A stretch of 58,097 nucleotides of DNA from NCBI GenBank assembly GCA_964624025.1, contig CAZUXK010000003.1, positions 1 through 58,097 of the forward strand. The letters are read 5' to 3'. Positions 15,722 to 46,091 of this stretch are shown here, piece by piece (position 1 is the stretch's first letter; each line of letters starts with the position of its first letter). The notes beneath the pieces were generated by a model that was given only the letters and a program-made list of their open reading frames with translations, did not search any database and was not told where the DNA came from. The DNA is from an uncultured Brevundimonas sp. GTDB taxonomy: Bacteria > Pseudomonadota > Alphaproteobacteria > Caulobacterales > Caulobacteraceae. The position numbers and the translations under genes were made by a program.

Positions 15722-15811
15722 GGACAGGTGGCCGAGTGGTTGAAGGCGCACGCCTGGAACGCGTGTATAGGCGAAAGCCTATCGAGGGTTCGAATCCCTC
15801 TCTGTCCGCCA
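15722..15811 (+). tRNA. tRNA-Ser(GGA)
   Basis: Acceptor GGACAGG/TCTGTCC, anticodon arm CACGC-CT-GGA-AC-GCGTG, long variable arm, GGTTCGAATCC T-arm, G73 plus encoded CCA. Confidence 0.98.
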
Positions 15812-15991
15812 CCCCGCTTGAACTAAAACAATCGCTTAGGTGCCGTTTGCCAAGTGTGCCGTGCGGCGCACCCGCCGCGCGTCGAAGTTTCCCCCTTCAA
15901 GTGACATCGGCACACCGTGGCGCACTCCCGGCACAGTGTTGCGCCGCTTAAACAACCGTGCGTTCAATGGCAGATCAGGGGGGCGGCAATC

Positions 15992-16780
15992 ATGTGGCTG
16001 TTGGTTTATATTCCGGCGCTTGCCGGGATTTGGCGGTATCGCTTTTGGGGATTCTGGAAGTGGGTCGTCGCGATGTTTCTTTTGCAATCGGTTGCCGACT
16101 TTCTCTTCGCTGCGGGTGGCACCCTCGACCAGCCCCAAGGGGATGGGCTGATTACCGGGATGGTGCGTCGGGCAACCGACGACGGTGCTGAAGTCGCCTT
16201 GCTGGGCGTGGGCTTCTGGATCGTCTTCCTGATCGGCGTGGTCCTCATTGTCAGCCAGATGCGAAAAGCCGCGCGGCAACCGCCAGCGCACGCCGAAGTA
16301 GCCAGCAACGTGCCACTGCTGAGACGCACTGCGGAGACTGGCGGTCTGACCCTTGCGATAGCTGCGCTGATGTTCGTTTCGCTCTCGGCGATGATGTCGG
16401 AGAAGCCCTTGGCAGCGACGCAAGACGCTTACACGCTCGAACAAGAAGTCGCCGACGCAGCAGTGGAAATCGGCCGAACCGTGCCCCAGCAGATCGACCC
16501 TTCGACCAAGCTGGTCGGCGTTCGCTCGGCTGGCCGCGTCCTGATCTACGACTACGAGCTTTCGGAACGTGGCACGCCCGAACAGATGCGCGACTTCTTC
16601 GCGAAGAACTCGCTGGCGCGGGTTTGTGCGGATGCGGTGATGCGCCCAGAGATGCGGCGCGGCGTGACGTTCCGCTACTCCTACATGCTGATCGGGCAGG
16701 AGGCACCGGTCGAGATCGACGTGTCTGAGCCGGTCTGCGCCGCAACGGTTGGGGACCGCAGTGGCGGCACGCAACAGTAG
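15992..16780 (+). CDS. Membrane protein with a C-terminal pilotin-like (GspS/AspS2-type) domain
   Basis: Several hydrophobic helices, then P..ID..T.L...LIY.Y...VC...R.GVT..YSY...C; domain call is by eye. Confidence 0.55.
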   Translation: MWLLVYIPALAGIWRYRFWGFWKWVVAMFLLQSVADFLFAAGGTLDQPQGDGLITGMVRRATDDGAEVALLGVGFWIVFLIGVVLIVSQMRKAARQPPAHAEVASNVPLLRRTAETGGLTLAIAALMFVSLSAMMSEKPLAATQDAYTLEQEVADAAVEIGRTVPQQIDPSTKLVGVRSAGRVLIYDYELSERGTPEQMRDFFAKNSLARVCADAVMRPEMRRGVTFRYSYMLIGQEAPVEIDVSEPVCAATVGDRSGGTQQ

Positions 16781-17297
16781 CGCAGCGGGACCGCAGATCA
16801 CGCCAATCAGCGGCCTCGTCGATGACGCGGCCGACTACTTCAAGTCCGTGGTAATTCCTGCGGTCGAACTGGCATGCGCTCACCCTGCCTCGAAGTCCGT
16901 TGCCCTCTCCGCTTTCATCCTTCTTCACCACACTAAGGACTGGGCAAGGCATGAAGGTCTGATCACGTCGGAGGCCGACCTGTGGGCACATTGTCCCTAC
17001 GCCAATGTCATCGCGGAGATCGCGAACGGCGGGAAGCACCGGGTTGTCGGAGACAAGCATTTGGTAGCTGATCCAATGGTGGTGGAATTCCGGCTGTGCC
17101 GTTTCGGAGAAGGCGGCTACGGGGTCGGACCTTACGGCGTTGAAAATATCCAAGTGAAAGGCCGCAAGCTCGCGTCCGAAAAGCCGACGTGGCGATCTGT
17201 GCGAGCAGTCCTTCAGGAAGCTGTCGGCTGGTGGAAAACGACGCTCGATGAAGGCGCGGCTTCCAAGATTCAGGTTTCGCCCGGCGCATCACCCTGA
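16749..17297 (+). CDS. Hypothetical protein, possible HEPN-like fold (start uncertain)
   Basis: Helical ORF with A...LHH..DW and CP....IAEIANGGKH; no ATG start. Confidence 0.5.
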   Translation: MGTAVAARNSSAAGPQITPISGLVDDAADYFKSVVIPAVELACAHPASKSVALSAFILLHHTKDWARHEGLITSEADLWAHCPYANVIAEIANGGKHRVVGDKHLVADPMVVEFRLCRFGEGGYGVGPYGVENIQVKGRKLASEKPTWRSVRAVLQEAVGWWKTTLDEGAASKIQVSPGASP

Positions 17298-17579
17298 GAG
17301 GCTGGGGTGCCAGAACGACGTGAATGACGAAGCGTCTTCAAGTCGCTCAAACCAAATATCGAGCGAGCCGTCTTCCAACCCTGCGAAGCCCACCCATTGG
17401 CCTTTACACATTGCCTCCAGCCAAAGGCAAACGCTCCCGATCCAAGAGCGTTGGCGAGGAGTAGTTAGACGAGGAAATCTGGTTTGAGTGTGAACCCAGT
17501 CCTTCGATCCGATCTCTGTGACCTTCTGTAAGAGCACGAGTCTGTCTTCATCTTCTTCAACGATGATCTGTCTTGTCAT
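17289..17579 (-). CDS. Small hypothetical protein, phage-like
   Basis: 96 aa with ATG start; WL...C.GQW....IWFE..EDA..F..W pattern. Confidence 0.55.
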   Translation of the reverse strand: MTRQIIVEEDEDRLVLLQKVTEIGSKDWVHTQTRFPRLTTPRQRSWIGSVCLWLEAMCKGQWVGFAGLEDGSLDIWFERLEDASSFTSFWHPSLSG

Positions 17580-17685: not shown

Positions 17686-18198
17686 CTATTTGATTGGCGA
17701 AAACTCAGTGGACCACACAGTCCTCCGGTCCTCGGAATTCATGTGCTGTTCCTTCAGCACATAGCTCGCGGCCGTCGCGTGGTCGTCGATGATCCGCAAC
17801 GTGTAGGAGCCGGGAGGCACGATGTCGTTCCACACGCCGCCCCGTTCGCCGGGAAACATGCGATGGAACCGCAACAACCGATTGGTGCCCGGCGGCGTAG
17901 GTGGCACGCGCCACATTGCGTGGGCGTGAACGCTTCTGCGATCCCCTTCGAATGCGAAGAGGGCCAGCGATCTCGCTTCGCTCGGCAGCTTATGAAAGCG
18001 CCGCCCGAGGAGTTCTTCGTCAACCCGCCGATGAAGGCGGCGTAGATCGCCCTGAGCGGCCTCCAGACGGGTGTCTCGGTTCCACGACAGGGTAAGGACG
18101 TGGGTGAAGCGCAATGCCGCACAGAAGCGCGCCTGAGCCTCCTTAAAGGCTACTCGATTTCGCCCAACAAATGATGGCTCTTCGCTAATGTTCGACAT
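17686..18198 (-). CDS. Small HUH endonuclease / rolling-circle Rep-like protein
   Basis: Ordered RCR motifs: I THVLTL, II E....VHAHAMW, III SYVLK (YxxK). Confidence 0.75.
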   Translation of the reverse strand: MSNISEEPSFVGRNRVAFKEAQARFCAALRFTHVLTLSWNRDTRLEAAQGDLRRLHRRVDEELLGRRFHKLPSEARSLALFAFEGDRRSVHAHAMWRVPPTPPGTNRLLRFHRMFPGERGGVWNDIVPPGSYTLRIIDDHATAASYVLKEQHMNSEDRRTVWSTEFSPIK

Positions 18199-18255
18199 CA
18201 CTCATATCCATCTTCTACGATAGCGCACAGACTACTGGGCCGCCATTTGTTTTTG

Positions 18256-18292: not shown

Positions 18293-18580
18293 ATGAGATA
18301 CATCGAGATCATCCGCGAAGCCATGACAAGTTCTTCGCGAGCCGCAAAGACTATTAGCGACGCGGCAGCACGGAAGGCTGACGCACTTCGCACCTATCAA
18401 GGCAAGCTTCGCGTTGCGAAGGCGGCCGAAGCGAACGCCCGCAGCACCGAAGCGTCGGCGGCACGAACAGACCGTCTGGCCGCCAGCCAGCAAAAGCGAG
18501 CGGACGCTGCCGCCACCTATCAAGCTTCAATTCGCAGGGCCGACGATGCCATCCGTCGCTCGCGGCAACCCGACCGTTAG
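18293..18580 (+). CDS. Small Ala/Arg-rich helical protein with a capsid-targeting-sequence-like N-terminus
   Basis: 95 aa starting MRYIEIIRE-A; leaderless arrangement. Confidence 0.65.
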   Translation: MRYIEIIREAMTSSSRAAKTISDAAARKADALRTYQGKLRVAKAAEANARSTEASAARTDRLAASQQKRADAAATYQASIRRADDAIRRSRQPDR

Positions 18581-18608: not shown

Positions 18609-18684
18609 GTGGCACAGAGAAGTTGGCACGGCACCACTTAAACATATGAAACTCCTTGTGATTGATGGCAGTCAGGCTGGGATT
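18609..18684 (-). other. Internal inverted att-like site (core plus arm-type repeats)
   Basis: Reverse complement of 18666-18684 is AATCCCAGCCTGACTGCCA, 14/19 identical to the tRNA end; TTGGCACG lies 35 bp from this core, as it does at attR. Confidence 0.6.
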
Positions 18685-18731
18685 GCTTGTGATTCAAGCC
18701 GTCCAGAGCCGTTGCGCCCTTCGATGTCACC

Positions 18732-18803
18732 GATGTAGCGGACCACAATATGCGAGTCAAGTCGTATTTCCCCACTTGACGCATTGTTTGAAGATGGTAT
18801 GTT
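18732..18803. promoter_or_regulatory. Divergent housekeeping-type promoters around an inverted repeat
   Basis: Plus strand TTGACG(18776)-N16-TATGTT toward MarR/integrase; minus strand TTGACT(18760)-N15-GCTACATC; inverted repeat GTCAAGT/ACTTGAC at 18756-18780. Confidence 0.5.
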
Positions 18804-18845: not shown

Positions 18846-19304
18846 ATGAAGCGACCGGTCCAGCATGGTGTCGAAGGCACAGATACAGATCGCGTGATGG
18901 CCGCGATGAACGGTCTCGCCGACCACGCCGCGACGTTCGCGGCAATTGAGTCGAGCGTCCGCACGATTGCCGAACTGATGCCCGCGCGCGTGTCATTGCG
19001 GCAGGGCCTCGCCTTCCTATTCGTCGTTCACGCCAACGCTCGGGGCCGCCGAGTGACGATGACAGACGTTCGCCAATCCTTCAGCGAAACGGAACACGGC
19101 TCGGTCAGCGTTGGCCAGTCCATCGCGAAGTCGTTTCAGGTCTTCTTTGAAGCCAGCAAGCAAGAGCCGAACGGCCTGAACTGGGTTCGGCAGGAAGCCG
19201 ACCGTGACGACCGGCGAAAGAAGTATCTGGTCATCACCGCCGAGGGCGCGGAGGTCGCACTGAAGATGGTTGCGCCTCCGCAGATCGAAGGCGACGAAGC
19301 ATGA
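18846..19304 (+). CDS. MarR-like winged-helix protein
   Basis: C-terminal GLNWVRQEAD.DDRRKKYLVIT.EG wing motif; ATGA coupling to the integrase. Confidence 0.8.
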   Translation: MKRPVQHGVEGTDTDRVMAAMNGLADHAATFAAIESSVRTIAELMPARVSLRQGLAFLFVVHANARGRRVTMTDVRQSFSETEHGSVSVGQSIAKSFQVFFEASKQEPNGLNWVRQEADRDDRRKKYLVITAEGAEVALKMVAPPQIEGDEA

Positions 19305-20401
19305 AATCCTTCGCCCTCAAGCCCAAGTCATCGGGCATCCTCTACGTCGAGTTTTACGAAGGAGAGGTTCGGCGACGCATCACCACGGGATCACGAGATA
19401 CGAAGGTCGCACGTCAACGCGCGCGAGAAATCGTTAGCGGAAACGTCGTCACTCCGACCCCCTCCGCACCGTCGAAATCGAGCGGGATGACGATGGGCCA
19501 ACTGCTTGATCTGTGCTGTAAAACTGTCTGGGCACCCCGCAATGTTCGATCACAGCGGACGGTGAAATCCAATGCCAAAATCCTTCGCGAGATGATCGGC
19601 GACGAGCCGGTTTCCGACATGACGTTCACCCGACTGGAGCTTCTTGTTCAGGAGCTTTTCAACCGTGGCTACGCTGCCGGAACAGTTCATCGGAAGATGT
19701 GCGCCGTCAGCAAAGCCCTGAACTATGCCGCGAAGATCACGGGGCCGAACGGTAAACCTGTCTTCCATGGCAAGCCGTCGATGCCGACTGTGGTGACGAA
19801 GAATTCTCGAAGCCGCGTCATCACGGCTGCGGAAGAGAAAGCAATTTTCTCTGCCATCGAAAAGCGAGCGAACAGCGAACCGGCTCGGTCATGGACGCGG
19901 TTCGCGCACTTGATCAGGTTCTTGCTCGATACGGGATGTCGCTTGGGTGAAGCCCTCAATTTGAGCGACGCGCTGATCGAATCCGATGGCGACGCGACCT
20001 TCGTCACCTTCCCGCGATACTCGACGAAGAACGACGAGCCTCGCAAGCTGCCGCTATCGAAAGCTATCGTCGCGAGCTTGCCCTACCTCCGGTCATGCGC
20101 CGTAGGTGAGAAGCTGTTTCCGATGAAGTCGCAGACCGTCTGGTATATGTGGAACTCGATCCGCTCTGACCTTGTGGCAGCGGGTCTTCCAGTTGCCGAT
20201 GTCGTTCTTCACACGATGCGCCACACCTGCCTGACGCGCCTCGCCCGCAGCGGCCTCGTGCCGCTGGAGCGTATCAGCGACTGGGCAGGGCACTCGACTA
20301 TTCAGGTCACGATGGACCACTATCGGCACATGCTGCCCGCCGACAAGCTCTCGACTCTCGCCGTCATTGAGGACATCGCAGCCGCAAATGCCAACCAATA
20401 G
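19301..20401 (+). CDS. Tyrosine recombinase / phage integrase
   Basis: Catalytic R (TGCRLGE), K (TKND), HxxR (HTMRH), H (AGHS) and Y (DHYRH) all intact. Confidence 0.96.
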   Translation: MKSFALKPKSSGILYVEFYEGEVRRRITTGSRDTKVARQRAREIVSGNVVTPTPSAPSKSSGMTMGQLLDLCCKTVWAPRNVRSQRTVKSNAKILREMIGDEPVSDMTFTRLELLVQELFNRGYAAGTVHRKMCAVSKALNYAAKITGPNGKPVFHGKPSMPTVVTKNSRSRVITAAEEKAIFSAIEKRANSEPARSWTRFAHLIRFLLDTGCRLGEALNLSDALIESDGDATFVTFPRYSTKNDEPRKLPLSKAIVASLPYLRSCAVGEKLFPMKSQTVWYMWNSIRSDLVAAGLPVADVVLHTMRHTCLTRLARSGLVPLERISDWAGHSTIQVTMDHYRHMLPADKLSTLAVIEDIAAANANQ

Positions 20402-20504
20402 TGTTGTCCCACTTTGCGAATTATCACACTATTCTTTTTGTCGATACTATAGTGGCCACGCTTGGCACGCTTAATACTGATAACGTATTGTTATTGTTGT
20501 GTTG

Positions 20505-20525
20505 AGTCCCGCTCTGTCCGCCACC
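20505..20525 (+). other. attR (displaced tRNA-Ser 3' end)
   Basis: AGTCCCGCTCTGTCCGCCACC versus AATCCCTCTCTGTCCGCCACC in the tRNA. Confidence 0.88.
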
Positions 20526-20692
20526 GCCGCCCCCCTCTAGTCTCGGTCTCCTCGTCGCTCCCGCCAGGAGCCCGACACGCCGGGCGCACACCCCTTCAAA
20601 CTCATCCGATCGCCGCCGCTTCTGAGCCCCTGACAGGGGCTTCGGGGCCATTTGGCGCGCCCCGTTCTCAAGGGTCGAAAGATCCGGATGAG

Positions 20693-20874
20693 TTTCCCTG
20701 CTAACAGGGAAAACATCAGGGAATTTTGGCGGAAAGCGAAGCCCGCCCAGCGCAGGCATCGGCGCGAAATGCCCACGCTGCCTGCATTTGCGGCGCGCGG
20801 TCGAGTTCCGCCGGCTGCAGGAAGCAGGGAATTTTTCGCGCCCGATCAGGGAAGCGTCGGCGGATTTCAGGGAA
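20693..20874. repeat. CAGGGAA repeat array downstream of the serine recombinase
   Basis: Palindrome TTTCCCTG-CTAA-CAGGGAAA (20693-20712) and direct copies at 20717, 20825, 20847 and 20868. Confidence 0.8.
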
Positions 20875-22465
20875 GCAGAGCCGCCCGCTGATCGTCCCAG
20901 GCCAGGGGGATCGCACGATGGCGCAGGTCCTCCAGACAGAGCCCCGGCTTCTGTCGGCCCTCCAGGAAGGCGAGCTGCACGTCCGGCGCCAGATAGGCCA
21001 GCCGGACGAGGTCGCGCTGATGGGGTGAGGCAGGAGATCGCACGATCATCCCCTCATCTCCGGCGTGGTCGGCCAGGATCGCATGGGCCGCCTTCAGCGC
21101 CTTGATCAGCGCCTGGCTCAGCCGCGCCTGCCTCGGCGCCTCGCCCTGGACCCAGGCGCGCCCACCCCGGAACTGAAGCCGGCGCGGCACGTGGAGCCAG
21201 AGCCTGGCGCCGTCCAGCGACAGGCGCTCGCCGGGCTCAAGCAGACGCGTCAGCCGCTCGATCACCATCGGAACCGACCGCTCCTCTTCGGCCAGGACGC
21301 GGGTCGCCAGCGCGATCTGGACCGCGGCATCGTGCACCTCAACCCGTGTCAGAAGCGTTTGCGGGTCGACGTGGGGGGCAAGGCGATAGAGCACCCCGAT
21401 GACCCACCGCTCGGTCGCGAGGGCCGGCAGGCGGTGGATGGCGCCGGGGCGAGGGTCGCGGGTGCGGCGGATGATGGTGCTGGAGACATAGTACCGGTGA
21501 GGCGCCCCGCTGCGGCCGTAGGCGTGCATCGGGGTCATGGGCACGCCATCGGCGTCGAAGATCTTGCCCTTCAGCGGCAGTAGCGGCGGCGGGGGCGCGA
21601 TGCGGTCCTTACGCTTGCTCGCTGGCCCGCGGCGGGCCCGGGTCGCCAGCTGCGCCTGGACCCGACCAAAAGTGGTCTGGTCGATGATCGGCGGATGGTC
21701 GCTGGGATAGGCCTGATCCTTGTGCGGGACCATGCCGAGGTAGGTCTTGTTGCGCAGCAGATGGTAGAGGGCCCCGTTATCGAAGGGCGTCCCGCCGAAC
21801 ACTGCCCCGGTCGTCGCGGTCCAGCGTTTGGAGACCCGCCCCTCGGCTTTCAGCTCCTGCTTCAGGGCCGGCACCGACTGCAGCTCCAGGAACCGGCGGA
21901 AGATGTGCCGGACCAGCTCGGCCTCCGCCTCGTTGAGCTTCAGCTTGCGGCCGGCGGGATCGTATCCGAGGGGCGGGCATCCCCCCATCCACATGCCCTT
22001 CTTTTTGGAGGCGGCGATCTTGTCGCGGATCCGCTCGCCGGTGACCTCCCGCTCGAACTGCGCGAACGACAGCAGCACATTCAGTGTCAGCCGTCCCATG
22101 GAGGTGGTGGTGTTGAAGGCCTGGGTCACCGACACGAACGAGACGCTGTGCCGATCAAACACCTCCACGATCCGGGCGAAGTCGCTCAGCGCCCGGGTCA
22201 GGCGATCGACCTTGTAGACCACCACCACATCGACCTTGCCGGCCGCGACGTCGGCCAGCAGCCTCTGGAGCCCTGGCCGCTCCATGGTGCCGCCCGAGAT
22301 CCCGCCGTCATCGTAGGCCGTCGCCAGCGCCGACCACCCCTCCCCCGCTTGGCTCTTCACATAGGCCTCGCAGGCCTCGCGCTGGGCATGGAGCGAGTTG
22401 AAGTCCTGCTCCAGCCCTTCCTCGGAGGACTTGCGGGTGTAGATGGCGCAGCGGAGCCTAGGCAT
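20867..22465 (-). CDS. Large serine recombinase
   Basis: CAIYTRKSS, DDGG.SGG..ERPGL, VYKVDRLTR, LLSFAQFERE, G..PLGYD motifs; 532 aa. Confidence 0.95.
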   Translation of the reverse strand: MPRLRCAIYTRKSSEEGLEQDFNSLHAQREACEAYVKSQAGEGWSALATAYDDGGISGGTMERPGLQRLLADVAAGKVDVVVVYKVDRLTRALSDFARIVEVFDRHSVSFVSVTQAFNTTTSMGRLTLNVLLSFAQFEREVTGERIRDKIAASKKKGMWMGGCPPLGYDPAGRKLKLNEAEAELVRHIFRRFLELQSVPALKQELKAEGRVSKRWTATTGAVFGGTPFDNGALYHLLRNKTYLGMVPHKDQAYPSDHPPIIDQTTFGRVQAQLATRARRGPASKRKDRIAPPPPLLPLKGKIFDADGVPMTPMHAYGRSGAPHRYYVSSTIIRRTRDPRPGAIHRLPALATERWVIGVLYRLAPHVDPQTLLTRVEVHDAAVQIALATRVLAEEERSVPMVIERLTRLLEPGERLSLDGARLWLHVPRRLQFRGGRAWVQGEAPRQARLSQALIKALKAAHAILADHAGDEGMIVRSPASPHQRDLVRLAYLAPDVQLAFLEGRQKPGLCLEDLRHRAIPLAWDDQRAALLP

Positions 22466-22883
22466 CGGCCCCGCTGCGCTTCACAAGACCAAAGAACAGC
22501 GGCCCGCTCCAGGCGCCGCCCGATATGCCCCGGGCGACAGCCGTCAGGCTGCGGTAGGTGCGGCCGTCCCACTCGAACCCCGCCGGGGTGCGCCGGACCG
22601 TGTGCGCCCGGCCCTGCCACTCCCGCGTCAGGATCGTGCCCACGGGGACCTCGAGCGCGCCGCGCCTGGGTGGCTTCTGGTCCTGCAGCTTGCGCATGGC
22701 CTGCGGGCAGAGGCCGCCGAAGGCCTCGGCCTGGATCCGCCAGGCCAGCATCAGCCCCAGAAGCTCGCGCGACCGCAGCCTGGGCTCTGGGCCGCCGTAG
22801 CGGGCGACCCACGCCTGCCTCAGGCCCTGAAGGTCCAGGCGCTCCAGCGCCCGGACCTCCTCGGTGATCGCCGCCCGCGTCAC
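22458..22883 (-). CDS. DUF2924 family protein
   Basis: LAWRIQ..AFGGL, GT.L.REWQG..H.V, SLTAVA..ISG..WSGP.FFGL. Confidence 0.9.
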   Translation of the reverse strand: MTRAAITEEVRALERLDLQGLRQAWVARYGGPEPRLRSRELLGLMLAWRIQAEAFGGLCPQAMRKLQDQKPPRRGALEVPVGTILTREWQGRAHTVRRTPAGFEWDGRTYRSLTAVARGISGGAWSGPLFFGLVKRSGADA

Positions 22884-23233
22884 GTCGTGCCCCGCGCGTT
22901 CGCGTCGGCGATGCGGTAGACCCTGCCGGCGTCGGTTTTGTCCGACGTGATCGTCAGGCCGTGCTTGCGCTTGAGCGCCCCCGCCAGGGCCCCACGGACC
23001 GAGTGCGGCAGCCAGTCAGTCGCCTCGCTCATCTGCGCGACCGTCGCGCCCTCGGGGCGGCGCATCAGCGCCACGATGGTCCCGAGCTTGCCGGCGGGCG
23101 CGCCAGGCGCACCGGCGCTCTTAGGCGGCTTGCTGGCCCCATGATCGCTACGGCTGGCGACCCTGCGCTCGGGGGACTGCATCCCGCTGATCGCGGGACG
23201 GGTGGACTTCGATGCAGGCTTACTCTTGGCCAT
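22880..23233 (-). CDS. DUF3489 family winged-helix protein
   Basis: K...IVAL..RPEGAT......TDW.PHSVRGALAG.LK.K.G...GRVYRI; ATG at 23233 with GAGGAG SD. Confidence 0.88.
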   Translation of the reverse strand: MAKSKPASKSTRPAISGMQSPERRVASRSDHGASKPPKSAGAPGAPAGKLGTIVALMRRPEGATVAQMSEATDWLPHSVRGALAGALKRKHGLTITSDKTDAGRVYRIADANARGTT

Positions 23234-23355
23234 TGGGCCCTCCTCTTGTTTGAGCAGGCCCCGTGGTGGGCCTGCTACCGAGGAAGGCCCGCGAGGGGCG
23301 GGCACGAAGCGACCAATGCTTCGACAGCGGATGAAGTCCAGAGCACTATCGGGTC

Positions 23356-24763: not shown

Positions 24764-25578
24764 GGCGCTGTCAGGATAACTGTGCCGGGTTGAGAAGCGC
24801 CCTGCCCTGCTGAAATCAGGCGACAGCGGCTGACCATGCAGCGTCGGCTTCGGCGCGGAAGCGGCGAAGTGTGGGTCTGCTGATCAAATGGCGTTGGATG
24901 TTGAAGGTGTTGTAGATCGCCGCGTGGGTTGTGAGGAATCTCTGGGCTGAGGCTTGGGATTTGAACCGCTGCTGTTGTCGTTCTCGTCGTCGGATCGGCA
25001 GGTGGGAGTTCTCAACGCGGTTGTTCTCCCGGAGCCGGCCCGGCCGGTGCAGATGCCTCAGATTCAGTTGATCGAGAGCGGCTCCGTACGACGCCAGGCC
25101 GTCGGTCGTGATCGTCTGCGGCTCGACCGGCTGGTTGTGGAGGAGGCGCTTCAAGAGCCTGATCGCCGCCTCTGTGTCCCGCCGGCGCTGGACTACAAGG
25201 TCCAGGACCTCACCTTCGTCGTCGACGGCCCGCCACAGATACAACCGCTTGCCGCCGATCCAGCAGACCATCTCGTCCAGATGCCAGCGCGGCGACGGAG
25301 CCGGCCGATGACGCCTCAATCTTTTGGCGATCAGAGGTCCGAACTTGATGGTCCAACACCGGATCGTCTCGTAGCTGACATCGATCCCGCGCTGCGCCAA
25401 CAGCTCCTCGACGTCTCGAAAACTGAGGCTGAATCGAAAGTACAGCCATACGGCGTGGCAGATTACGTCAGCCGGAAATCGGTGACGCTTGAACGAAATC
25501 GGCTTCACGAAACACCATCCCAGACAGCGGCTTATGCCGACTTTGCCGGTGACCTTTTGGCGTTTGCCTGACAGCACC
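24764..25578 (-). mobile_element. IS6-family insertion sequence (815 bp)
   Basis: Imperfect terminal repeats GGCGCTGTCAGGATAAC / GGTGCTGTCAGGCAAAC around a DDE transposase. Confidence 0.92.
24816..25508 (-). CDS. IS6-family transposase, intact
   Basis: FKRHRFP, WHLDE, YLWRAVD.EG, TTDG, NNRVE.SH motifs; GTG at 25508. Confidence 0.95.
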   Translation of the reverse strand: MKPISFKRHRFPADVICHAVWLYFRFSLSFRDVEELLAQRGIDVSYETIRCWTIKFGPLIAKRLRRHRPAPSPRWHLDEMVCWIGGKRLYLWRAVDDEGEVLDLVVQRRRDTEAAIRLLKRLLHNQPVEPQTITTDGLASYGAALDQLNLRHLHRPGRLRENNRVENSHLPIRRRERQQQRFKSQASAQRFLTTHAAIYNTFNIQRHLISRPTLRRFRAEADAAWSAAVA

Positions 25579-25693
25579 CAACGGCGTATTGTCGGTGGGC
25601 TGCCCATGTCTGCAGTTGGCGCCGAGCTGCCCCCTCCCCTCCCAGCTTTGCGCCTAAGCTTCATTCCTCGAAACGCAGCCGCCTGTTCGCTGA

Positions 25694-25704
25694 CTGACAG
25701 CACC
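25694..25704 (-). repeat. Orphan IS6-type terminal repeat
   Basis: CTGACAGCACC, identical to and co-oriented with 25568-25578 and 43958-43968. Confidence 0.75.
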
Positions 25705-44747: not shown

Positions 44748-46091
44748 ATGCTGGATGTTCTCGTTGTCGGGGCAGGCCTCGCCGGCCTGTCTGCCGCCAG
44801 GGCGCTGAAGCGCGCCGGCGCCTCGGTCCGGGTGCTGGAGAGCCGCGACCGGATCGGCGGCCGGGTGCACTCGCAGGGGCTGGACGTTGGCGTCACCCTC
44901 GATCTCGGGGCCCAGTTCATCGGCGACGCCCACGCCCATGTGCTCCACCTCGTCGGGGAAGCCGGGTTGCGGCGCGCGGCCGTGCACCGGTCCGGCGATG
45001 GGCTGCACGCGCGTCCCGGACAGCCGGCGCAGCGGGCGCCCGCCGACGCCTGGCCGCTCGGCTGGCGGGATCGTCTCGACGTCCTGCAGGCCGCCTGGCG
45101 ACTGGATCGGGCGATGAGGCGTCTCGACGGGGCCGCGGCGCCGGCTCTTGATCGCCTCACGGCCGGCGCGTTCCTGCGCCGCCAGACCCTTTTCGAGCCG
45201 GCGGCCGCCCTGCTCGGCGGCTACATCGAGGGCGAGCTGTGCGTCCCGCTCGATGACATCTCCGCCCGTGAAGTCCTCGATCAGGGGCGCGCCGTGGGCG
45301 GGCTCGCCGGCGAGCGCGCGTCGGCCGGCTGGTTTCTGCCCGACGGCGCCGCCGGCCTGGCGGACTGGCTCGCCGGGGGCCTCGCCGATGCGCTGACCCT
45401 GAACGCCCGGGTCACCGCCGTCGTCCCCGGACAGGACCATGTGACCGTCGCCGTCGGCCAGGAGAGCCTCCGCGCCCGCCACGCGATCATCGCCATTCCG
45501 CCACAGCTCTACGGGGCAGCCGGCCTGCTGCCTCACCTGCCGGGGACCTGGAGAGAGGCCCTGGCGGACTGGCGGCCGGGCGCCGTCATCAAGACCCTCC
45601 TCGTGTTCGAGCGTCCCTGGTGGCGGTCCCGCGGTCTTTCCGGCGCGGTGATCGCCCCCGCAGAGGTCTTCTCCGCCGCCGTCGACGCCTCACCCGCTGA
45701 CGACGGGCCGGGCGTGCTGGTGGTGTTCTCGACCGGGAGAGGCGCCCGCACCCTGGGCGCCACGGCAGACGAGGCCGTGCGGATCAACGCGGCGATGGCC
45801 TGGGTCCAGCGACGCTTCGGCGGTGAAACCCCGCCCCTCGTGACGGGCCGATCGATCGACTGGTCCGCGGATGCCCACAGCCTCGGCGGCTACGCCAGCC
45901 GGCGCGGGCCGGGCGGCTGGACCGCCGCGCCCGACCTCTTCCGCCCCGTCCACCGGTTGCACTTCGCCGGCACGGAGACGGCCGGAGCGTGGCGATCCTT
46001 CATGGAAGGCGCGATCCGGTCGGGTCTGCGCGCGGCGCGAGAGGTGCTTGAGGGGCCAGGGCCCGCGCCGGACGGAACGCCGGTACGCTGA
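44748..46091 (+). CDS. Flavin monoamine oxidase family protein
   Basis: VVGAGLAGL.AA, E.RDRIGGR, DLGAQF, HFAGTETA...MEGAIRSG.RAA. Confidence 0.92.
   Translation: MLDVLVVGAGLAGLSAARALKRAGASVRVLESRDRIGGRVHSQGLDVGVTLDLGAQFIGDAHAHVLHLVGEAGLRRAAVHRSGDGLHARPGQPAQRAPADAWPLGWRDRLDVLQAAWRLDRAMRRLDGAAAPALDRLTAGAFLRRQTLFEPAAALLGGYIEGELCVPLDDISAREVLDQGRAVGGLAGERASAGWFLPDGAAGLADWLAGGLADALTLNARVTAVVPGQDHVTVAVGQESLRARHAIIAIPPQLYGAAGLLPHLPGTWREALADWRPGAVIKTLLVFERPWWRSRGLSGAVIAPAEVFSAAVDASPADDGPGVLVVFSTGRGARTLGATADEAVRINAAMAWVQRRFGGETPPLVTGRSIDWSADAHSLGGYASRRGPGGWTAAPDLFRPVHRLHFAGTETAGAWRSFMEGAIRSGLRAAREVLEGPGPAPDGTPVR

What the first reader, a model, noticed from the sequence alone, without database searches (positions are those of the whole stretch)
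18609..18730. Third att-like site inside the element, inverted and with a different core: possible second-target attP or inversion site
Seen: the reverse complement of 18666-18684 (AATCCC-AGCCTGA-CTGCCA) mirrors the tRNA end (AATCCC-TCTCTGT-CCGCCA) and attR (AGTCCC-GCTCTGT-CCGCCA), with 4 of its 5 mismatches in the central 7 bp. TTGGCACG sits exactly 35 bp from the 19-bp core here (18623-18630) and at attR (20462-20469), and TTTGCCAA sits 34 bp from attL. A TGTCAC lies on the other side (18725-18730). Known: tyrosine integrases bind flanking core and arm sites and need identity in the ~7-bp overlap. Inference: the site keeps the binding elements but changes the overlap, so it should prefer a different target, such as another tRNA 3' end (possibly a phage tRNA). 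That would make a two-address element. Alternatively it inverts 15.8-18.7 kb or is the scar of an older insertion.
Basis: partly seen in the sequence, partly recalled or inferred. Interest (0 to 1): 0.85.

Follow-up and report, generated by a model that had tools for sequence, protein, structure and literature searches.

The report
Phage end-joining site kept by island
This extra recombination-like site in a small bacterial DNA island has the same build as a site found inside the repeated genome ends of T7-like temperate phages, and it likely lets one integrase join a linear or multi-copy genome into a circle before inserting it, rather than giving the island a second target address.

Summary
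The 4.7-kb tRNA-Ser island carries a T7-like-phage regulator-integrase pair and a HUH-fold Rep-like gene. Three related islands have the same site upstream of the regulator. Decisive: the same architecture (two tandem GGCAC-type boxes, an IHF-like box, a symmetric core, a private 7-bp overlap) lies inside the 259-bp terminal repeat of phage S2B and just downstream of terL in 11 of 20 related phage loci, with 0 hits in 712 kb elsewhere; a profile trained only on phage sites ranks the window's site first in its genome. All 13 phage overlaps tabulated differ, whereas attP overlaps are shared among relatives. Best reading: a self-by-self end-joining/resolution site (loxP-like) used by the same integrase that integrates at the tRNA; activity is untested. 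A second tRNA address is poorly supported: no host or viral tRNA matched the window's overlap, although a relative's overlap matches viral tRNA-Asp ends. Not found in ten literature searches.

The parts
15722..15811 (+). tRNA-Ser(GGA), integration target
   Evidence: ARAGORN; Rfam
15795..15811 (+). attL 17-bp core, overlap CTCTGTC at 15800-15806
15812..15870 (-). attL arm: IHF-like box and GGCAC-type boxes
   Evidence: binding inferred
15917..17297 (+). cargo: two ORFs (287 aa, 182 aa) without family hits
17289..17579 (-). 96-aa ORF, no family hit
17686..18201 (-). 171-aa HUH-fold protein with invariant HxH (92, 94) and YxxK (147, 150); likely rolling-circle initiator
18293..18580 (+). 95-aa Ala-rich ORF predicted as one long helix; homolog in L088
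18610..18630 (+). two tandem direct GGCAC boxes at -55 and -41 from the core (terminal-repeat-type geometry)
   Evidence: spacing kept in run X8 despite different upstream DNA
18639..18651 (+). IHF-like box 14 bp before the core (2 mismatches to the recalled consensus)
   Evidence: alignment, spacing shared with phage sites; binding inferred
18666..18682 (+). third core TGGCA GTCAGGC TGGGA; overlap 18671-18677
18725..18730 (+).
18776..18803 (+). sigma-70-like promoter ahead of regulator-integrase operon
   Evidence: 9 of 12 matches; similar in L088
18846..19304 (+). 152-aa regulator, 35% identical to the gene before the S2B integrase (the position annotated MarR-like in related phages)
19301..20401 (+). 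366-aa tyrosine integrase of the T7-like temperate phage lineage
20450..20506 (+). attR arm: single forward box at -43, IHF-like box
20507..20523 (+). attR 17-bp core, overlap CTCTGTC at 20512-20518

Best explanation
The site is the island's copy of an integrase-type site that sits inside the direct terminal repeats of related T7-like temperate phages, and it likely recombines only with an identical copy of itself, which would circularise a terminally redundant phage genome and would resolve multimers of this island into monomer circles. Steps: (1, shown) phages of this integrase lineage carry two classes of site, attP after int and a one-armed site in the terminal repeat with its own overlap; (2, inferred) after injection the two repeat copies are joined by Int plus IHF, giving the circle that integration at the tRNA needs; because both partners are copies of one sequence the overlap is not tied to any host target; (3, shown) the island kept this site, the regulator-integrase pair and the tRNA att ends, lost the phage genes and packaging landmarks, and has a HUH-fold gene; (4, inferred) the excised island replicates by rolling circle, travels as a concatemer in a helper capsid, is cut to monomer circles at this site and then integrates through attP. 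The 3-of-7 overlap mismatch would keep the two reactions apart.
For: Inside shown terminal repeats: S2B 151-167 and 45574-45590 of a 259-bp exact repeat, best non-attP profile hit of the 45.7-kb genome; Lo5R7ANS position 144 of a 246-bp repeat, 15 of 16 flank bases equal to its attP with a different overlap, rank 1 in 9 kb; Pasto position 162 of an annotated 271-bp repeat, 12 of 16, rank 2. Strict tandem-box+core pattern: 11 of 20 terL-bearing loci within 1.6 kb after terL (29.8 kb searched), 0 hits in 711.8 kb elsewhere; five more (L010, L093, L103, L106, L109) by profile score. Geometry: boxes at about -54/-41 in phage repeats and islands, versus one forward box at -43 to -46 in post-int att arms. 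Profile trained on 11 phage sites only ranks 18666 first in the 2.55-Mb genome (18.8; attL 15.9) and finds L088 27.6, L089 29.2, L008 16.5. Overlaps: 13 of 13 tabulated phage sites differ, close pairs differ by one base, while att overlaps are shared by up to five elements; near-identical island copies differ in the overlap (X3/X4) and L008 has another one. Island integrases nest among T7-like phage integrases (SH-aLRT 94, quick tree). HUH motifs and fold. Concatemeric virion packaging of small integrase-bearing elements is described (PMC9618062, passages).
Against: No binding or recombination data; no circle or multimer junction seen (only contigs were available). 9 of 20 phage loci fail the strict pattern and L105, L107, L110, L111 were recovered by neither pattern nor profile; the pattern was shaped after seeing 11 sites (L009, L013, L112, L008 were new to it). 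The 8+8 flank test was not significant for S2B, ProddE, LUZ100, S-TIP37 and four pelagiphages (7 of these plus S2B = 8 of 11 phages). The islands lack the phage repeat landmarks, so T7-type packaging is not indicated. 4 of 8 non-phage loci with full-length integrase lack the site (L011, L014, L015, L090). L088 and L089 share the overlap GTCTGAC over about 0.8 substitutions per site, more than free drift predicts; partial palindromy may explain it, or a fixed partner. The margin of the window's site over background is thin (18.8 vs 17.2). Fold Z-scores for the HUH protein are middling (7.7 at best). Homologous recombination across 250-bp repeats could circularise phages without Int.
Confidence: 0.6

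Rival explanations
1. Two-address element, helper version: the island circle uses this site to recombine into the terminal-repeat site of a T7-like helper phage with the same overlap and rides in its capsid.
For: Same site class as phage terminal-repeat sites; overlap identical in L088 and L089; 4.7 kb is small.
Against: None of 13 tabulated phage overlaps or the further ones equals an island overlap; a scan for box+core with island-type overlaps gave 69 viral loci, none with a terL, integrase or Rep homolog and all with negative profile scores; no island-in-phage locus found.
Confidence: 0.13
2. One reading: an intact second attP for another tRNA 3' end, possibly a phage tRNA.
For: The right half of the window's core is tRNA-like; the L088/L089 overlap plus half-site equals the 3' end of tRNA-Asp in 11 of 51 viral loci, and the X3/X4 overlap occurs in viral tRNA-Trp (3) and tRNA-Arg (1).
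Against: 9 of the 16 heptamers allowed by the pattern hit some viral tRNA, so such matches are common; the window's own overlap hits none in either reading; the tRNA-Asp contigs are 35-39% GC against a 70% GC host; no host tRNA match; the site is one-armed with terminal-repeat geometry, not attP geometry; tRNA-like halves also occur in phage repeat sites L093 and L112.
Confidence: 0.07
3. Regulatory site: Int or the MarR-like regulator binds here to control the operon or the phage's early promoters, without strand exchange.
For: 100 bp upstream of the operon's promoter-like sequence; MarR boxes near the RNAP promoter are hypothesised for such phages (PMC10134795, passages) and GGCAC-type words are frequent there.
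Against: In phages the site is 3.5-8 kb from the operon; fixed box-IHF-core spacing and a symmetric core around 7 variable bases are recombination-site features; cores track each phage's own attP core (Lo5R7ANS, Pasto).
Confidence: 0.09
4. Vestige: the island is a deleted T7-like prophage and the site, functional in phages, is now idle.
For: Order attL-...-site-regulator-int-attR equals that of co-directional prophages (L017, L094); 4 of 8 non-phage loci lack it; the window's copy scores lower than relatives.
Against: Core and boxes are kept while spacers diverge in four islands; run X8 has different upstream DNA with the same box spacing; surrounding repeat landmarks are gone while the site stays.
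Confidence: 0.08
5. Inversion site for 15.8-18.7 kb, or hairpin (protelomerase-like) end formation at a near-palindromic overlap.
For: Window core is a mirror of the tRNA end; cores occur in both orientations in the family and the L016 core is nearly the reverse complement of the L018 core; island overlaps average 2.5 of 3 palindromic pairs.
Against: 3 of 7 overlap mismatches; no inverted locus or joint seen; many phage overlaps are not palindromic (mean 1.5 of 3).
Confidence: 0.03

Closest known systems
Phage P1 Cre-loxP (recalled)
   Same: Tyrosine recombinase joining two identical sites in terminally redundant DNA to make a circle and to resolve multimers.
   Different: Cre is a dedicated, arm-less enzyme; here the site has arm-like and IHF-like boxes and the only recombinase in the island is the tRNA-targeting integrase, so one enzyme would serve two site classes.
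MarR-integrase module of temperate T7-like phages (S2B, LUZ100, pelagiphages, S-TIP37, Pasto, Lo5R7ANS)
   Same: Homologous integrase (45% to S2B) and regulator, att core downstream of int, tRNA target; terminal-repeat site shared.
   Different: The island has no RNA polymerase, terminase or structural genes. The three papers read in passages describe attP only and contain the word 'circular' 0 times.
Lambda-type attP/attL/attR with arm and IHF sites (recalled)
   Same: Core of inverted half-sites around a 7-bp overlap, AT-rich IHF-like box, distal repeated boxes.
   Different: One-armed, tandem boxes of 13-14 bp period, no partner of equal overlap anywhere in the element or host.
VEIMEs / concatemer-packaged phage satellites (PMC9618062)
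   Same: Small integrative element, tyrosine integrase, no capsid genes, rolling-circle-type replication gene.
   Different: Packaging of this island is not shown; no helper known; a resolution site was not seen in the passages read.

Membership tests
second attP (two-address element) | arms on both sides of the core in attP geometry | tested here: not met
   one arm with tandem boxes at -55/-41, unlike post-int att arms; right-side TGTCAC not conserved
second attP (two-address element) | a natural target with the same overlap | tested here: inconclusive
   none for the window's overlap in own genome, 301 family genomes or viral contigs; viral tRNA-Asp match for L088/L089 at a high base rate
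second attP (two-address element) | related elements found opened at the site | tested here: not met
   intact in window, L088, L089, L008 and runs X3, X4, X8, X11; small sample
terminal-repeat site of T7-like temperate phages (defined here) | tandem boxes, IHF-like box, symmetric core at fixed spacing | tested here: met
terminal-repeat site of T7-like temperate phages (defined here) | lies within a terminal repeat with packaging landmarks | tested here: not met
   landmarks absent around the window, L088 and L089 sites; met for S2B, Lo5R7ANS, Pasto
lox/res-type self-recombining site | recombination between two identical copies | not testable with these tools
   needs in vitro or plasmid assay
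lox/res-type self-recombining site | overlap not tied to a host target | tested here: met
   13 distinct overlaps in 13 phage sites; four different ones in island copies, with L088 = L089 as the exception
invertible segment | inverted sites with identical overlap; both orientations seen | tested here: not met
   3 of 7 mismatches; no joint in contigs
phage satellite | integrase and att ends at a tRNA, own replication gene, no virion genes | tested here: met
   Rep function inferred from motifs and fold
phage satellite | helper-dependent induction and packaging | not testable with these tools
   no homolog of the HUH protein in viral contigs; no virion data
HUH rolling-circle initiator | HxH and YxxK motifs on a Rep fold | tested here: met
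   invariant in 13 of 13 aligned homologs; top fold matches include SIRV1 ORF119 (Z 7.7, rmsd 3.6, 111 aligned) and AAV5 Rep (Z 7.1), tied with ferredoxin-like folds

The most novel reading that the evidence does not exclude
Temperate T7-like phages solve their circularisation problem with a previously unnoticed integrase site built into the direct terminal repeat, so a single lambda-type integrase runs two orthogonal reactions (end-joining on a private overlap, integration on a tRNA overlap); a family of 3-6 kb HUH-Rep islands derived from these phages kept the end-joining site to turn packaged concatemers into circles, or to enter helper genomes at their termini.
Probability: 0.55. Interest if true: 0.85.

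Novelty: new variant of a known kind. Interest (0 to 1): 0.74.

Why it matters
T7-like phages inject linear DNA with direct repeats and no cohesive ends, yet many integrate; how they first become circular is not addressed in the papers read here. The site gives a concrete, testable answer in a cultured phage (S2B on Caulobacter), a sequence marker of temperate capacity, and possibly a natural pair of orthogonal sites for one integrase. It also defines a small island family descended from these phages.

Tried and rejected
Exact scan for the L088 core in viral contigs: 7 hits, all chance coding matches. Box+IHF+core scan: only two already known loci. Tandem-box scan: 5 loci, 1 true (already known) terminal-repeat site, 1 more near terL without a good score. 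HUH protein not found in plasmids or viral contigs; weaker homologs in 6 of 275 genus genomes and 3 of 400 order genomes; the 7 genus regions inspected had no integrase homolog. No close island among 275 genus genomes by DNA; 11 of 275 carry related integrases, mostly N-terminally shorter and without the site. First 800-bp post-terL test missed sites lying further out, later extended to 1.6 kb. A planned negative control failed: RHEph01 and RHEph21 proved to carry integrases; RHEph21's left end shows tandem boxes, IHF-like box and its attP half-site by eye, but the automatic flank test did not report it. No integrase-less relative was tested. No RNA holder listed. One opposite-strand joint 15556/20236 in run X1 (31-base side, not at an att site) was set aside; X1 and X2 barely cover the third site. 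PADLOC: no hit for the five island ORFs. L008's Rep-like ORF does not align to the window's HUH family. The protein atlas gave no answer. Earlier findings: nothing relevant in 4 look-ups.

Full report
Observation. Comparing att sites across the family gives a symmetric 17-bp core TGGCR-N7-YGCCA, so the overlap is CTCTGTC at attL and attR and GTCAGGC (18671-18677) at the third site; the box lies 40 bp from the overlap here and 42 bp at attR. The core match alone could be chance (49 five-mismatch hits in 2.55 Mb); core plus boxes is not.

The element. A 4.7-kb island of about 58% GC in a 70% GC host sits in tRNA-Ser(GGA). It holds three ORFs without family hits, a 171-aa protein with invariant HxH and YxxK motifs in 13 of 13 aligned sequences whose model matches HUH initiators among other ferredoxin-like folds (pLDDT 83; Foldseek top hit SIRV1 ORF119, E 3.6e-3; VIA Z 7.7), a 95-aa helical ORF, the third site, a regulator and a tyrosine integrase. 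The nearest phage integrases are those of the Autographiviridae records S2B (45%) and jiawei (39%), where regulator and integrase precede the RNA polymerase. In a quick tree of 55 sequences the island clade sits with T7-like phage integrases L093, L094, L096 (SH-aLRT 94; careful search unfinished).

Conservation in islands. Of 165 loci fetched with integrase alignments I analysed the 38 closest plus two phage records and 14 genus regions. L088 (integrase 69%) and L089 (60%) have the site 150-180 bp before the regulator with overlap GTCTGAC and share the HUH gene. L008 (48%), a delimited 4.8-kb tRNA-Ser island, has it with overlap CTGAACG and an unrelated ORF bearing HUH-like motifs. L011, L014, L015 and L090 do not (4 of 8), nor do eight loci with N-terminally shorter integrases. 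Contigs of runs X3 and X4 carry the island at about 93-97% identity with one change in the overlap; X8 matches from 18639 rightwards and has different DNA to the left that still holds two boxes at the same spacing; no joint touches the site.

The phage homolog. A profile built only from tRNA-att arms found extra one-armed sites in L010, L017, L093, L094 and L103; the ORF ending about 300-500 bp before them is the large terminase, the last gene of T7-like genomes. In S2B the site lies at 151-167 of the 259-bp exact terminal repeat and is the best non-attP hit of the genome; in jiawei it is 309 bp after terL. A uniform pattern (two tandem boxes, 35-37 bp, core) hits 11 of 20 terL-bearing loci within 1.6 kb after terL and 0 times in 711.8 kb elsewhere; profile scores add five; four remain unrecovered. 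The pattern was shaped on 11 sites, so it is partly circular; L009, L013, L112 and L008 were new to it. Boxes stand at about -54/-41 in phage repeats and islands but singly at -43 to -46 in post-int att arms. A profile trained on 11 phage sites alone ranks the window's site first in its genome, narrowly (18.8 vs 17.2), above attL. In a lineage at 27% identity, Lo5R7ANS has a site inside its 246-bp repeat that matches its own attP flanks at 15 of 16 with a different overlap, and Pasto at 12 of 16; jiawei scores 14 of 16; the other 8 of 11 phages were not significant in that test. All 13 tabulated phage overlaps differ, while att overlaps are shared.

Mechanism. A site duplicated with the terminal repeat always meets an identical partner, which explains a free overlap, and tyrosine recombinases need overlap identity (established knowledge), which explains why it should not cross-react with attL/attR. 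I infer Int- and IHF-dependent joining of the phage ends, like Cre-loxP of P1 (recalled), before integration. The islands lost the repeat's landmarks but kept the site next to a HUH-fold gene, so I infer resolution of rolling-circle multimers after transfer, in the manner of concatemer-packaged satellites (PMC9618062, passages). Binding, strand exchange, replication and packaging are all untested, and the identity of the GGCAC boxes as Int arm sites rather than regulator operators is inferred; the IHF consensus is recalled.

No tRNA of the window's genome (87.6% complete) fits. A tRNA-end pattern allowing 16 overlaps hit 2 of 301 family genomes, both in coding DNA, and 51 viral loci, 44 of them tRNAs: none with the window's overlap, 11 tRNA-Asp with the L088/L089 overlap and half-site, 4 with the X3/X4 overlap. 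Nine of 16 heptamers hit a tRNA and the tRNA-Asp contigs are 35-39% GC, so this is weak, but with the L088 = L089 identity it keeps a fixed-partner reading alive. No viral terminal-repeat site with an island overlap was found.

Literature. Ten searches listed no paper on an att-like site in T7-like terminal repeats. Passages found by term search were read in PMC8776855, bioRxiv 10.1101/410191 and PMC10134795 ('circular' 0 times in each), PMC9703825 and PMC9618062; supplements were not read. The S2B paper and the ProddE/Pasto paper (recalled) were not available and could mention it.

Verdict. A real, conserved site; not an intact second attP; most likely a self-recombining end-joining/resolution site inherited from T7-like temperate phages. 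New variant of a known kind; interest 0.74; confidence in the mechanism 0.6.

Noticed in passing
window 20690-23305: Right of attR begins another likely element: a large serine recombinase (20867-22465, minus) with DUF2924 and DUF3489 genes and ACAGGGAA-type repeats at its edge; tRNA-Ser(GGA) is a tandem insertion hotspot, also in L088, L089, L091.
   Followed up: partly
window 24816-25703: IS6/IS240-family transposase.
   Followed up: no
L201, L202, L204, L205, L207-L211: Islands in the window's genus with the same regulator but integrases whose match starts at residue 34-68, lacking GGCAC arms and the extra site; several have a different att-like core 6-8 kb upstream.
   Followed up: partly
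L203, L212: T7-like prophages in which regulator-integrase is divergent from the RNA polymerase gene, unlike S2B.
   Followed up: no
post-int att sites across the family: The tRNA-Ser core occurs in both orientations relative to int (e.g. window, S2B, L017, L094 versus jiawei, L010, L016), and the L016 terminal-repeat core is nearly the reverse complement of the L018 one: cores appear to flip during evolution.
   Followed up: partly
L100, L101, L104, L107-L109, L112, L113: T7-like viral contigs with arm boxes after int but no recognisable tRNA-type core there; L108 and L112 still keep the terminal-repeat site, which would fit circularisation without tRNA integration.
   Followed up: partly
L221 (OR464703.1): Record named a Mycobacterium phage, but it is T7-like, its attP overlap equals the window's tRNA-Ser overlap and its relatives are alphaproteobacterial prophages; the host label is doubtful.
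   Followed up: no
L014 8300-9450: 6.2-kb island with an Ala-rich ORF like the window's 95-aa ORF on the opposite strand and no extra site.
   Followed up: partly
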